64,000 bases of DNA from Escherichia coli (GTDB lineage: Bacteria; Pseudomonadota; Gammaproteobacteria; Enterobacterales; Enterobacteriaceae). Below the pieces are notes generated by a model. The model was not told the origin of the DNA and did not search any database. It saw nothing but the letters and a program-made list of their open reading frames with translations. The position numbers were made by a program, and so were the translations under genes. The first letter of the stretch is position 1. Every line of letters starts with the position of its first letter. The stretch lies in assembly GCF_045037415.1 (NCBI RefSeq), contig NZ_CP173438.1; one strand, written 5' to 3'. Of this stretch, positions 21,191-26,401 are shown piece by piece.

Positions 21191-21397
21191 TCAGACAACC
21201 AGTGCGTCACCTTTTTGAAGGCGCTTTAAAGCACGTTTTAATCCAGGTCGGCCTGTCCTTGTTCCGCTTAATTTATCTTCAAATATTTGTTCATATCCTG
21301 CACAAACAAGAGCGTTTCGTTGCAGATCTGTATTCTGGTCATTTGTTGATACCCTTACATAGCCAATCAGCACGCTGAATCTCCCGTCCAAAAGCAC
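21191..21397 (-). pseudogene. pin: truncated serine DNA invertase (Pin/Gin/Hin family), N-terminal about 60 codons only
   Basis: Translation LIGYVRVSTNDQNTDLQRNALVCAGYEQIFEDKLSGTRTGRPGLKRALKRLQKGDALVV-stop matches recalled invertase N-terminus with catalytic Ser region; about 120 C-terminal codons missing. Confidence 0.7.
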
Positions 21398-21427
21398 AAA
21401 TCATGCCATGCAGGCCAGAAACCGCCA

Positions 21428-21453
21428 TTATCTAAAACCTCGGTTTACGAGAA
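21428..21453. promoter_or_regulatory. gix/hix-like invertase crossover site (distal)
   Basis: TTATCTAAAACCTCGGTTTACGAGAA resembles recalled gix TTATCCAAAACCTCGGTTTACAGGAA; inverted partner at 24509-24534. Confidence 0.6.
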
Positions 21454-22951: not shown

Positions 22952-23479
22952 TTATTCTGGTTTCTGTGGCCATTCAGGCTTTGCAGTATCCACACGGCTG
23001 ACCATAACGCTGTAGCGTTCCCATGATTCCAGTCGTGTGCGTTCCTCATCAGTTGCCATATTCAGTCTGACAGCACGTTCCAGCGGTTGAATCACAGACT
23101 CCGCTTCGGAAAGCAAAGCGGCTTTTTGTAACTCTGCCTGCTGTTGCAGTTCCTGTTTTGTATATTCCCGCTTTACTACTTTACCATCCAGAAACTTCCA
23201 GTTTCCCGAGATATCGGCGCGACGGTTGGCTGTTATATTCGGTAACTCAACAACACTTAACCCGTCAGGGTTAAGTGTTGATACGTCTTTCTCAATACAA
23301 CGAATAATCCCCTTCTGGTCATAAGCTATTTTTAAAGTATCATCCTGAAAGTTTTTTAATTCGTCATACCAGTTTTTACCGTCTTCTGTATATAGCCAGA
23401 TAACGCCAGCTTTTTTCGTAAGCTGATACTGCTCAATGGTTTTGGGGTTTCCGGCGGTAATATTTTTCAGATGTTGCAT
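22952..23479 (-). CDS. tail fibre assembly protein (partner of expressed fibre)
   Basis: 175 aa [40 protein letters not shown]; immediately downstream of fibre gene. Confidence 0.8.
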
Positions 23480-23494
23480 ATATTCTCCTGATGG

Positions 23495-26401
23495 CTATGC
23501 CTGTTCAACGTTATACCAGTTACCAGAAATGTATTTTTGTAGTGGTCGTGACACCATCCAGTCATCTCCATCAACCTCACCAATAATTTGCAATCCTGTT
23601 GTCACATGACCATTACCTGGTTCGCAAAGTCCTCCGCGATATAATGTGTCAGAACGTCTGCCTCCCAGACGCACATTTCTGATAAAAGAACTATTCAGGT
23701 AATCATTTAAGTTTGACCCCCAGCACCCACCAAATATATTTCCATCGGTGTTATAACGGACGCCACCCGCAATAAGAGCACCCGGTGAAATAAAGGATTT
23801 ATCGTTCGGGTTAAACTGCCATAAAGCATCATTACCGCCATCGCCACGCATATGAATACATGGAACCGGAAATCCATACTGTTCTGTCAGTAAATACCCA
23901 AAGCTGACCGCGCCGGGATAGCCCTGTCCATTGCGAATGGACAAGCCCTTAACTATCGGCACGTAAAGACCACCAGGAGTGGGATTCCAGGCAAACTGCG
24001 TCTGAACAAAAGGCGCGGTGGCATTATTCAACTGGTCTGCAAATGCGCCACTTCCATCAGGAATTATTCCCTGATGAATATATGCAACCCGCTTATAAAA
24101 ATCAGCAGATGCGGGTTGAAGCCCAAATGCCAGTTGTCCATTTGAATAGAATAAAAGGACACCGTCGCCGCCCTGTTTAATACCAGTGTCGTTATCTCCG
24201 AGAGTAATGGAATTACCGCCCAGTGCGTTATCTGTACCAAGCGCCAGCCCACCATCAATTTTGGCCCCGTGGCTGACAGATATAGCACCTGTTCTCAGAT
24301 TTATAGCGAATGGCCTTAATGGGCCGATATCACCGTTTTCGCCTTGTCCTTCAGCCGTCGGAATGAAATGAAGAAAATCTTCTGAACGACGGAAAATAAG
24401 ACCGAAGGCATCATTGAAAATTCGCAGCGCATTCACCGTGCCAATTTTCAGTTCTCCGGTCATTTTATCGCCGGAACGCTGAACGGCGTTACCAGCCTTG
24501 TTTACCGTTTCCTGTAAACCGAGGTATTCGATAACGGCGGCAACGGTCGATTTCGCAAGAATATCCCGCCCAACTTTTGTCAGGGTTGCCAGACTGGCAA
24601 CATCATTCCCCGTAAAATACGGAAACCTGTCTGCCGCAGTAGCAAGCCCGGCCAGCGCCGTCAGGGTGGCATCTTTCGGTTGCTTACCCGCAAGCGCGCT
24701 AGTCATGGTGGTCGCAAAATTCGGGTCGTTGCCCAACGCCGCAGCCAGCTCGTTCAGCGTATTCAGTGCGTCAGGCGACGAGTCCACGAGGGCAGCGATC
24801 GCAGCCATAACATAAGCCGTGCTTGCGATTTGGGTATTATTCGTTCCCTGTCGCGCAGTTGGTGTTGTTGGCGTTCCGGTCAGTGCAGGACTATTTAAGG
24901 GCGCTTTCTTGTTCGTTTCACCCATTACCGCCTTAACCGCTTTTGGCGTTGCCGCCAGTGACTCGGAAGTGCTGTTGGTCGCACTGCTGAGCTGTACTAT
25001 CCCCTTTTTCGTCGTGCTCGCATCCTCAAGCGCCACGGCGGATGCAATATCCTCTGCCCGTTTTGCCGCTGTCTCGGCGCGCGTTGCCGCGGATTCCGCC
25101 GTACTTTTGCTCTGAGCTGCCGCCGTCGCACTGCCAGCTGCCTCTGTCGCCTTCGTGGATGCCGTCGTGGCGCTGCCCTTTGCTGCTGACGCCTGTCTGG
25201 TCGCCTCATCTTTTGAAGCAGACGCAGATGATGCCGATGACGCCGCTGAACTGGCTGACGATGCGGCTGCCGCCTTAGAGGAAGCAGCATTGTCTGCTGA
25301 AGTCTTTGCATTTGTTTCAGAGGTTTTTGCTGCAGAAGCAGACCTCGCTGCTGCAGTGGCTTGCTCAGTGGCTTTGCCAGCCTTCGTTGTGGCTGTTGAA
25401 GCGGATGATGCGGCGCTTTCTGCCGATTTTCCGGCGGCGGTGGCACTGGCTGAGGCCTGCCCGGCACTTGTTGACGCGGCACTGGCAGATAATGCAGCCG
25501 CTGTTTTTGAACCTGCCGCAGCTGAGGCGCTCTGTCCCGCTGCTGTTTCAGAAGACTTAGCGTTCGTCTCGGACGTTTTTGCCGCCTTCGCGGAATTTCC
25601 TGCCGCCGTTGCCGAGGAAGCTGCACTACTGGCACTTGATGATGCATTCGTTTCTGAAGATTTCGCTGCCTCTTTTGAGGCCGCCGCACCCCGTGCCGAG
25701 GTGGCAGCTTCTGACGCCTTCGTGGTCGCTGTGGATGCAGAAGTGGCTGCCGATTTTTGTGATGCTGCGGCATTCGTTTCTGACGTTTTCGCGGCACTGG
25801 CGCTGGTAGCTGCCGCGCTTTTTGATGACTCTGCAGCAGCAGCACTTTTTGCTGCTTCACGGGCCTTTGTCGATGCCGTTCCTGCGCTGGAAGACGCTGA
25901 CTGAGCCGACGACGCGGCCTGTCCGGCTGACGTGCTGGCGGCACGTGATGAGGCTGCAGCATCGGTTGCATGAGTTGCCGCCTCGCTGGCTGATGCACTG
26001 GCATCGCTGGCTGATTTTTTCGCGGCTGCCGTATTCTGTGCAACCGCGGAGGCGTTACGTGACACCTCTTCTACCATCTGCTCAAAGCGGCGCAGTGCCT
26101 CCGGTCGTACATCATCCTCCGTCATGGCACCGAGAAAATCATTCAGCGTACCTGGTCTGGAACCTTCATAGACGGTAATGGTCCCGGCATGTGAAGGCGG
26201 AAAACCTTCAACCAGCAGGGTGACGCTGTACTGACCATGCTCAACATCCATGCTGTAACGTCCGGCTTCATCCGGATTTTCAGAGGCCACCGTGTTCACC
26301 ACCACCGTGCTGCTGGTTCGTCTGGCCTTCAGCACAATGGTGCAGTTCTGTACTGGTTTTCCTGTGCCATCTTTAAGCACGCCAGAAATTTTTACTGTCA
26401 T
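23495..26401 (-). CDS. side tail fibre protein
   Basis: 968 aa; Ala/Ser/Thr-rich repetitive central domain and conserved C-terminal receptor-binding motifs; follows lom as in lambda stf. Confidence 0.8.
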   Translation of the reverse strand: MTVKISGVLKDGTGKPVQNCTIVLKARRTSSTVVVNTVASENPDEAGRYSMDVEHGQYSVTLLVEGFPPSHAGTITVYEGSRPGTLNDFLGAMTEDDVRPEALRRFEQMVEEVSRNASAVAQNTAAAKKSASDASASASEAATHATDAAASSRAASTSAGQAASSAQSASSSAGTASTKAREAAKSAAAAESSKSAAATSASAAKTSETNAAASQKSAATSASTATTKASEAATSARGAAASKEAAKSSETNASSSASSAASSATAAGNSAKAAKTSETNAKSSETAAGQSASAAAGSKTAAALSASAASTSAGQASASATAAGKSAESAASSASTATTKAGKATEQATAAARSASAAKTSETNAKTSADNAASSKAAAASSASSAASSASSASASKDEATRQASAAKGSATTASTKATEAAGSATAAAQSKSTAESAATRAETAAKRAEDIASAVALEDASTTKKGIVQLSSATNSTSESLAATPKAVKAVMGETNKKAPLNSPALTGTPTTPTARQGTNNTQIASTAYVMAAIAALVDSSPDALNTLNELAAALGNDPNFATTMTSALAGKQPKDATLTALAGLATAADRFPYFTGNDVASLATLTKVGRDILAKSTVAAVIEYLGLQETVNKAGNAVQRSGDKMTGELKIGTVNALRIFNDAFGLIFRRSEDFLHFIPTAEGQGENGDIGPLRPFAINLRTGAISVSHGAKIDGGLALGTDNALGGNSITLGDNDTGIKQGGDGVLLFYSNGQLAFGLQPASADFYKRVAYIHQGIIPDGSGAFADQLNNATAPFVQTQFAWNPTPGGLYVPIVKGLSIRNGQGYPGAVSFGYLLTEQYGFPVPCIHMRGDGGNDALWQFNPNDKSFISPGALIAGGVRYNTDGNIFGGCWGSNLNDYLNSSFIRNVRLGGRRSDTLYRGGLCEPGNGHVTTGLQIIGEVDGDDWMVSRPLQKYISGNWYNVEQA
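24509..24534. promoter_or_regulatory. gix/hix-like invertase crossover site (proximal, inside fibre gene)
   Basis: TTCCTGTAAACCGAGGTATTCGATAA, inverted relative to site at 21428; encodes IEYLGLQET in the fibre. Confidence 0.6.

What the first reader, a model, noticed from the sequence alone, without database searches (positions are those of the whole stretch)
21191..24534. Mu G-segment-like invertible tail-fibre module with gix-like sites but a truncated invertase (probably phase-locked)
Inverted 26-bp sites resembling gix/hix (21428-21453 and 24509-24534) bracket about 3.1 kb holding two opposed fibre C-terminal segments, each with its own tfa. The proximal site lies inside the 968-aa fibre gene (encoding IEYLGLQET); the distal one opens a start-less alternative frame, the architecture of Gin/Cin/Pin host-range switches. 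The adjacent invertase gene retains only about 60 N-terminal codons before a stop, so the switch is probably frozen unless an invertase acts in trans.
Basis: partly seen in the sequence, partly recalled or inferred. Interest (0 to 1): 0.6.

Follow-up and report, generated by a model that had tools for sequence, protein, structure and literature searches.

The report
Known ST131 prophage tail-fibre inversion switch
This is the tail-fibre inversion switch of prophage Phi4 of E. coli ST131, published in 2014: its own invertase gene is a dead stump, yet the segment still flips, so the switch is real and active but not new.

Summary
Two 26-bp gix-like sites (21428-21453 and 24509-24534) lie in inverted orientation. 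They bracket 3.1 kb that holds two opposed fibre C-terminal cassettes, each with its own tfa gene. Beside them is a serine-invertase stump of 60 codons.

The interpretation "probably phase-locked" is wrong. The window is E. coli ST131, prophage Phi4 of strain EC958, inserted in ompW. An in-silico flipped copy of the locus matches 138 complete genomes at 100% identity. The window orientation matches 232. All of these carry the same stump. One-patient clonal isolates differ in orientation. One assembly holds both orientations, and its sites are reciprocal half-site hybrids, which places the crossover at the site centre.

Forde et al. 2014 (PMC4134206) described this exact segment, its sites and the truncated invertase. 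They saw both orientations in one culture and proposed that the Phi1 invertase acts in trans.

I add three points:
- The stump keeps the Fis-enhancer-equivalent sequence, 70/72 identical to Mu gin.
- The Phi1 invertase is intact and 85% identical to Gin, and its sites differ from the Phi4 sites by 1-2 nt.
- The stump is an old pin-tfa fusion found in about 530 genomes.

Verdict: already known, low interest.

The parts
24523..26401 (-). Constant N-terminal part of the side tail-fibre gene (Sc, codons 1-~627). It lies outside the invertible segment and is shared by both fibre forms.
   Evidence: ORF 23495-26401. The common prefix is 629 aa after the in-silico flip. Tail-fibre PHROGs match (phrog_8713 and phrog_454, E about 1e-166).
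24509..24534 (+). Fibre-internal crossover site, TTCCTGTAAACC GA GGTATTCGATAA (gix-like).
   Evidence: It has 2 mismatches to Mu gixR, with none expected by chance. It is identical to site Phi4_5prime of Forde 2014, Table 3. It differs by 2 nt from the Phi1 fibre-internal site.
23495..24520 (-). Variable fibre C-terminus A (Sv), expressed in the window orientation to give the 968-aa fibre.
   Evidence: It matches phrog_5454 and phrog_6859 tail-fibre C-termini. It has only weak, patchy similarity to Mu S.
22952..23479 (-). Tail-fibre assembly chaperone for cassette A (tfa, 175 aa).
   Evidence: phrog_136, E 7e-77. PGAP names it 'tail fiber assembly protein' WP_001164137.1.
22388..22921 (+). Tail-fibre assembly chaperone for cassette B (tfa', 177 aa).
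   Evidence: phrog_136, E 2e-70. PGAP accession WP_000972097.1.
21454..22386 (+). Start-less variable fibre C-terminus B (Sv'). It is fused in frame to Sc after inversion, giving the 941-aa fibre.
   Evidence: In-silico flip. PGAP annotates the 941-aa protein WP_023363168.1 in an inverted record. The cassette is 96% identical to the Phi1 cassette and 85% identical to Mu S' over 93 aa.
21428..21453 (-). Invertase-proximal crossover site; the minus strand reads TTCTCGTAAACC GA GGTTTTAGATAA.
   Evidence: It has 3 mismatches to Mu gixR. It equals site Phi4_3prime of Forde 2014. It differs by 1 nt from the Phi1 proximal site.
21284..21355 (-). Sequence equivalent of the Fis-dependent recombinational enhancer, at nt 19-90 of the invertase coding sequence and retained inside the stump.
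   Evidence: The P1 record annotates the enhancer at cin nt 19-90. The gap-free alignment gives 70/72 identity to Mu gin and Phi1 pin and 55/72 to P1 cin. Function is inferred.
21125..21373 (-). Invertase pseudogene stump. Codons 1-64 are Gin-like and codons 65-~83 Cin-like. TGA stops lie at codon 61 (21191-21193) and codon 65 (21179-21181). Catalytic Ser9 is present. The helix-E/oligomerisation region and the DNA-binding domain are absent.
   Evidence: alignments to the intact Phi1 pin and to P1 cin. (phrog_125 positions 21-80 only). PGAP marks it a pseudogene.
21047..21130 (-). The 3' fragment of a tfa gene, fused to the invertase stump at the truncation junction.
   Evidence: Translation ...[14 protein letters not shown]. 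The same junction occurs in the ETEC O6:H16 remnant. PGAP lists it as 'tail fiber assembly protein, missing N-terminus'.

Best explanation
This is an active Gin/Cin/Pin-type DNA inversion switch in lambdoid prophage Phi4 of E. coli ST131.

A serine DNA invertase encoded elsewhere in the genome binds the two 26-bp sites. It cuts at the central GA/TC dinucleotide and flips the 3.1-kb segment. The constant 629-residue fibre N-terminus is thereby joined to one of two alternative receptor-binding C-termini, giving a 968-aa or a 941-aa fibre. Each C-terminus is followed by its own chaperone gene.

The adjacent invertase gene is a dead stump and contributes no enzyme. It still carries the Fis-enhancer-equivalent DNA in cis.

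The most likely trans-acting enzyme is the intact Gin-like invertase of the P2-like prophage Phi1 in the same chromosome.

Shown here:
- the sites and the in-frame alternative fibre;
- the truncation of the invertase;
- both orientations in nature, with reciprocal half-site exchange.

Inferred:
- which invertase acts;
- that the stump sequence works as an enhancer;
- that the two fibres give different receptor specificity.
For: - **Sites.** There are exactly two gix-like sites in the window, inverted, with none expected by chance.
- **Alternative fibre.** The flipped segment reads in frame.
- **Orientation counts.** The window orientation is in 232 genomes and the in-silico flipped form in 138. 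The listed best matches are 100% identical over the full 5101 nt and include the same stump. An independent count with another query gave 139.
- **Clonal isolates.** U12A carries the flipped form. U13A, U14A and U15A carry the window form. They differ by no more than 26 core SNPs and come from one patient (PMC6692316).
- **One assembly, both orientations.** GCF_001874485.1 has the window orientation in its chromosome (H12). A 32.7-kb extra record holds the flipped one. The sites in that record are reciprocal half-site hybrids, which maps the exchange to the site centre.
- **Published evidence.** Forde et al. 2014 found both orientations in PacBio reads of one EC958 culture, noted the truncated invertase and proposed Phi1 acting in trans. 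A bioRxiv study PCR-confirmed switching in prophage 'BP-4795' of ST131 isolates, for which it reports no invertase; I take this to be Phi4.
- **Candidate enzyme.** The Phi1 invertase is intact at 199 aa and 85% identical to Mu Gin. Its sites differ from the Phi4 sites by 1 and 2 nt.
- **Enhancer equivalent.** It is retained at 70/72 identity to Mu gin.
- **Precedent.** In K-12, PinQ of prophage Qin inverts the P segment of prophage e14 (PMC12529663).
Against: - Orientation in a consensus assembly reflects the majority state of a culture.
- The identity of the trans-acting enzyme is not established. EC958 also has an intact invertase in Phi2. Some ST131 strains carry Mu-like or P1-like elements with invertases.
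- I could not intersect presence of the Phi1 invertase with orientation across genomes.
- Enhancer function of the stump is inferred from sequence identity only.
- In this window the tail-tip gene J is frameshifted and lom is interrupted by ISEc12. Whether either fibre is ever used on a virion in this strain is therefore doubtful.
Confidence: 0.9

Rival explanations
1. The switch is frozen (phase-locked) because its invertase is truncated.
For: The stump encodes only 60 codons. It lacks the oligomerisation helix and the DNA-binding domain. No other invertase gene and no third gix-like site lie in the 64-kb window.
Against: Both orientations occur with the same stump in 232 and 138 genomes. They occur in one-patient clonal isolates and within one assembly. 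They were also seen within one EC958 culture.
Confidence: 0.03
2. The segment flips, but the enzyme is not the Phi1 invertase. It could be the Phi2 invertase or one carried on a Mu-like or P1-like element or a plasmid.
For: EC958 Phi2 encodes an intact 190-aa invertase that is 82% identical to the stump over 60 aa. From established knowledge, Gin, Cin, Pin and Hin complement one another, so site similarity does not single out one enzyme. Some ST131 isolates carry a further invertase in a Mu-like prophage.
Against: Phi2's own sites are much more divergent and use a TT core (Forde Table 3). Phi1's sites are nearly identical to the Phi4 sites. The Phi1 block of pin 5' end, site and Sv' is 96% identical to the Phi4 block.
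Confidence: 0.3
3. The orientation polymorphism comes from RecA-dependent homologous recombination between the inverted repeats, or from assembly error, and not from site-specific recombination.
For: The sites are part of a 32-36-nt imperfect inverted repeat.
Against: - The repeat is short and imperfect. The longest perfect shared run is about 14 nt, which from general knowledge is below the usual minimum for efficient RecA exchange.
- The exchange maps between the polymorphic positions of the two half-sites and so includes the central dinucleotide.
- A 32-nt repeat cannot confuse long-read assemblers.
- The same pattern is seen at Phi1 and Phi2, which have intact invertases.
Confidence: 0.03

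Closest known systems
E. coli ST131 EC958 prophage Phi4 invertible tail-fibre segment (Forde et al. 2014, PLoS One 9:e104400)
   Same: It is the same locus. The window is 99.994% identical to EC958 over 17.1 kb. The 26-bp sites are the same, the segment is the same 3106 bp, and the invertase is the same truncated gene.
   Different: Nothing in the switch itself differs. The window strain has an intact trpC where EC958 is frameshifted. It also has a frameshift in J that EC958 lacks.
Bacteriophage Mu G segment / Gin
   Same: The layout is the same: Sc | gix | Sv-U | U'-Sv' | gix | invertase transcribed away from the segment, with the enhancer in the 5' part of the invertase gene. The sites are 23-24/26 identical to gixR with the same GA core. 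The stump is 118/120 identical to gin over nt 1-120.
   Different: The host phage is a lambdoid siphovirus with a lambda-Stf-type fibre N-terminus, not Mu. The invertase is a pseudogene. Variable part A is barely related to Mu S, and part B is related to S' only in a 93-aa block.
E. coli K-12 e14 P segment inverted in trans by PinQ of prophage Qin (Kirigo et al. 2025, NAR)
   Same: An invertase from one prophage flips the tail-fibre segment of another, defective prophage in the same chromosome.
   Different: e14 still has its own intact pinE, whereas Phi4 has none. An anti-phage role, as for the e14 product StfE2, has not been tested for Phi4.
EC958 prophage Phi1 (P2-like) invertible segment
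   Same: The sites are nearly identical, differing by 1 and 2 nt. A 1.5-kb block covering the pin 5' end, the site, Sv' and the start of tfa' is 96% identical.
   Different: The Phi1 invertase is intact at 199 aa. The Phi1 segment is 2773 bp, and its fibre constant part is of the P2 H type.

Membership tests
Gin/Cin/Pin/Hin-type (Din) DNA inversion system | Two 26-bp crossover sites in inverted orientation with identical central dinucleotides | tested here: met
   Sites at 21428-21453 and 24509-24534, on opposite strands, both with a GA/TC core.
Gin/Cin/Pin/Hin-type (Din) DNA inversion system | Sites match the known gix/cix consensus | tested here: met
   They are 24/26 and 23/26 identical to Mu gixR as read from NC_000929. 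Forde Table 3 aligns them to the Sandmeier consensus.
Gin/Cin/Pin/Hin-type (Din) DNA inversion system | An intact cognate serine invertase encoded next to the segment | tested here: not met
   Only 60 codons precede a stop, a second stop lies at codon 65, and the gene is fused to a tfa fragment at about codon 83. The system depends on an enzyme supplied in trans.
Gin/Cin/Pin/Hin-type (Din) DNA inversion system | A Fis-dependent recombinational enhancer in cis, within the 5' part of the invertase gene | tested here: inconclusive
   The sequence equivalent is present at 21284-21355. It is 70/72 identical to Mu gin and collinear with the annotated P1 cin enhancer. Fis binding and enhancer activity cannot be tested with these tools.
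Gin/Cin/Pin/Hin-type (Din) DNA inversion system | The segment is found in both orientations, with reciprocal exchange at the site centre | tested here: met
   232 genomes against 138. Hybrid half-sites occur in an inverted record. Both orientations were seen in one culture.
Phage tail-fibre host-range switch (Mu S/S', P1 S/S' type) | A constant fibre N-terminus outside the segment, and two alternative in-frame C-termini inside it, each with its own chaperone gene | tested here: met
   Fibres of 968 and 941 aa share 629 residues. Two tfa genes match phrog_136.
Phage tail-fibre host-range switch (Mu S/S', P1 S/S' type) | The two fibre forms confer different receptor or host specificity on virions | not testable with these tools
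   This needs induction and plating. In this window J is frameshifted, so virion production by this strain is doubtful.

The most novel reading that the evidence does not exclude
The invertase stump may persist because it carries the cis-acting Fis enhancer. Phi4 would then be an 'orphan' switch slaved to the Gin-like invertase of the unrelated P2-like prophage Phi1, so that the fibre phases of two prophages are co-regulated. In strains like this one, where the tail-tip gene J is broken, the flipping fibre may serve the host instead, for example by masking receptors against other phages as reported for e14 StfE2. It would then not serve phage host range.
Probability: 0.25. Interest if true: 0.4.

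Novelty: already known. Interest (0 to 1): 0.15.

Why it matters
The locus shows that a truncated recombinase gene does not mean a dead switch. Annotation pipelines and readers who infer 'phase-locked' from a pseudogene next to an invertible segment will be wrong whenever a compatible invertase sits elsewhere in the genome. For ST131 genomics it has practical weight. The flip produces alternative contigs, artefactual duplications and inconsistent fibre annotation in complete assemblies. None of this is new; Forde et al. made these points in 2014.

Tried and rejected
- **Inter-prophage exchange.** I built a chimeric junction of the Phi1 variable cassette joined to the Phi4 constant part and searched all 5,426 complete genomes. 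No 100% match was found. The best hits, at about 92%, are simply Phi4 in the flipped orientation. So there is no evidence for invertase-mediated recombination between Phi1 and Phi4 sites at that junction. The reciprocal junction was built but not searched.
- **Mu gixR pattern on the Phi1 locus.** With up to 3 mismatches it found nothing, because the Phi1 fibre-internal site has 4 mismatches to gixR (my count). A pattern based on the Phi4 sites found both Phi1 sites.
- **NCBIfam.** It gave no hits for the fibre, tfa or methyltransferase proteins, and only sub-threshold hits for the invertases. PHROGs was informative.
- **Activity of the 60-aa stump.** Rejected. The stump keeps Ser9 but lacks everything from Trp61 onwards, including the conserved Arg65/Arg68 region, helix E and the helix-turn-helix domain (alignment plus established knowledge of serine recombinases).
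- **RecA exchange or assembly artefact.** Rejected on the half-site hybrid structure.
- **Intersecting Phi1 invertase presence with Phi4 orientation.** I could not do this genome by genome, because the search tool lists at most 60 rows.
- **File access.** Loci L004, L005 and L007 never appeared in the script sandbox. I handled those comparisons with the alignment tools instead.
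Full report
**What the window is.** The region is E. coli ST131. Bases 19600-24700 match strain EC958 (NZ_HG941718.1, 1484618-1489718) and many other O25b:H4-ST131 chromosomes at 100% identity. A 17.1-kb stretch is 99.994% identical to EC958. The locus is the right end of a lambdoid prophage of about 54 kb inserted in ompW next to trpA. Its genes run from int/xis through cI/cro, replication, Q, lysis, terminase, capsid, tail, J and lom::ISEc12 to stf-tfa. This is prophage 'Phi4' of Forde et al. 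2014.

**Check of the observation.**
- The repeat finder gives inverted arms 21422-21453 and 24509-24540 (32 nt, 84% complementary).
- I read the Mu gixR 26-mer from NC_000929 and searched the window with it. It hits only these two places, on opposite strands, with 3 and 2 mismatches. None is expected in 100 shuffles.
- The sites read TTCTCGTAAACC-GA-GGTTTTAGATAA (invertase-proximal, minus strand) and TTCCTGTAAACC-GA-GGTATTCGATAA (inside the fibre gene).
- The fibre ORF (26401->23495) encodes 968 aa. Flipping 21440-24522 in silico gives an in-frame 941-aa protein that shares the first 629 residues.
- Each variable cassette is followed by its own tail-fibre assembly gene, and both match phrog_136.

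**The invertase stump.**
- It runs 60 codons from GTG at 21373 to TGA at 21191-21193. It matches only the first 60 positions of the DNA-invertase profile.
- Alignment to intact invertases shows Gin-like sequence through codon 64. A second TGA lies at codon 65. Cin-like sequence follows to about codon 83, and then the gene is fused to the last ~27 codons of a tfa gene (...[14 protein letters not shown]...).
- The same fusion and the codon-65 stop occur in a decayed prophage at the lambda attachment site of an ETEC O6:H16 strain, where codon 61 is still TGG. The fusion is therefore the older lesion. W61* has so far been seen only in the ST131 sequence.
- About 530 complete genomes carry the stump-tfa junction.

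**Is it frozen? No.**
- I built the flipped version of 19600-24700 and searched all complete E. coli genomes. It covers at least 80% of the query in 138 genomes, and all 30 listed matches are 100% identical over the full length in one piece, with the same stump and flanks. These include JJ1886, JJ1887, U12A, 4/0, S103EC and p11A. The window orientation is in 232 genomes.
- Closely related isolates differ. U12A is flipped, whereas U13A, U14A and U15A have the window form. These are isolates from one patient that differ by no more than 26 core SNPs.
- Assembly GCF_001874485.1 has the window orientation in its chromosome (H12). A separate 32.7-kb linear 'extrachromosomal' record carries trpA, the ompW remnant and the Phi4 end with the segment flipped. 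This is the 'spurious contig' signature of a mixed culture.
- In that record the two sites are TTCCTGTAAACCGAGGTTTTAGATAA and TTCTCGTAAACCGAGGTATTCGATAA. They are exact reciprocal half-site hybrids of the window's sites. The exchange therefore lies between the polymorphic half-site positions and includes the central dinucleotide, as expected for a serine invertase and not for homologous recombination.

**Prior literature.**
- Forde et al. 2014 (PMC4134206) list exactly these two sites in Table 3 (Phi4_5prime and Phi4_3prime) and a 3106-bp invertible segment.
- They report an alternative-orientation PacBio contig from one EC958 culture.
- A later preprint (10.1101/2022.05.07.487787) PCR-confirms switching in prophage 'BP-4795' and in the P88-like prophage of ST131 isolates, and reports an invertase in the latter but not the former. 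I take 'BP-4795' to be Phi4.
- The finding is therefore already known.

**What acts in trans.**
- EC958 Phi1 (P2-like) encodes an intact 199-aa invertase. It is 85% identical to Mu Gin.
- Its two sites (L002 4323-4348 and 7071-7096) differ from the Phi4 sites by 1 and 2 nt.
- A 1.5-kb block covering the pin 5' end, the site, Sv' and the start of tfa' is 96% identical between Phi1 and Phi4.
- EC958 Phi2 also has an intact 190-aa invertase, which is 82% identical to the stump. Its own sites are divergent.
- From established knowledge, Gin, Cin, Pin and Hin complement one another, so sequence alone cannot assign the enzyme. Phi1 is the most parsimonious candidate.
- A K-12 precedent for cross-prophage action is PinQ of Qin flipping the e14 P segment.

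**An addition: the enhancer.**
- Invertases of this family need a Fis-bound enhancer in cis. It is a 65-bp element with a Fis site at each end, normally about 100 bp from one site (PMC3798978).
- The P1 record annotates it at cin nt 19-90.
- In a gap-free alignment, the equivalent stretch of the stump (window 21284-21355) is 70/72 identical to Mu gin and Phi1 pin and 55/72 to P1 cin. The conserved blocks lie at both ends.
- The stump therefore still supplies the cis element that a trans-acting invertase would need. This is an inference from sequence and has not been tested.

**A negative test.** I looked for recombination between Phi1 and Phi4 sites by searching for a junction of Phi1-Sv joined to Phi4-Sc. 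No genome has it.

**Function.** By analogy with Mu and P1, the two fibres should differ in receptor specificity. Variable part B shares an 85%-identical 93-aa block with Mu S'. Part A is only distantly related to Mu S. In this particular window the tail-tip gene J is frameshifted near codon 468 relative to EC958, and lom is split by ISEc12. This copy may therefore not make infectious particles, and whether switching benefits the phage or the host here remains open.

**Verdict.** The architecture is correctly identified. 'Probably phase-locked' is refuted. The locus and its trans-driven inversion were published in 2014. Interest is low.

Noticed in passing
window 29806-33278 (minus strand): The tail-tip gene J is split into 489-aa and 708-aa ORFs by a frameshift near codon 468, relative to the intact 1157-aa gpJ of EC958. 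Either the prophage is tail-defective in this strain or this is a sequencing error.
   Followed up: partly
window 26553-29738: An IS21-family element, ISEc12 (istA 27624-29165, istB 26863-27612), is inserted in the prophage lom (Ail/Lom) gene. The two lom fragments lie at about 26553-26723 and 29280-29738. EC958 has the same insertion.
   Followed up: partly
window 19948-21144: A class I SAM-dependent methyltransferase gene (20324-20992, phrog_2132) is flanked by direct repeats of about 148 bp and 89-90% identity (19948-20095 and 20998-21144). The repeats are 3' ends of tfa genes. The arrangement resembles the tfaD-ybcY-tfaX region of K-12 prophage DLP12 (that gene naming is from memory). K-12 records match the methyltransferase/tfa junction at about 97%.
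   Followed up: partly
window 18432-18569 (minus strand): A 45-codon C-terminal remnant of ompW lies next to trpA at the prophage end. EC958 has an intact ompW at the int end of the prophage, so the phage appears to carry a replacement 3' end for its target gene.
   Followed up: partly
L008 (NZ_CP024275.1, ETEC O6:H16 M9682-C1) 4989-5315: The same invertase-stump/tfa fusion sits in a decayed prophage near bioA-ybhB (the lambda attachment region). There it is annotated as a 64-aa 'recombinase family protein' and codon 61 is still Trp. The stump module is older and more widespread than ST131 Phi4, at about 530 genomes.
   Followed up: partly
NZ_CP082831.1 (strain SCAID WND1-2021), hits H28 and H52: This 5.45-Mb chromosome holds the locus twice, once in each orientation, at two distant positions. 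This is probably the artefactual duplication from alternative-allele contigs that Forde et al. warned about, but it could be a real duplication.
   Followed up: no
window 15012-16370 versus L001 1414-2771: trpC(F) is an intact 452-aa ORF in the window but is annotated as frameshifted in EC958. The only indel in 17.1 kb between the two sequences probably lies here.
   Followed up: no
window 25000-26000 (minus strand): The constant part of the fibre contains a long Ala/Ser/Thr-rich region with several families of degenerate direct repeats of about 20-33 nt.
   Followed up: no
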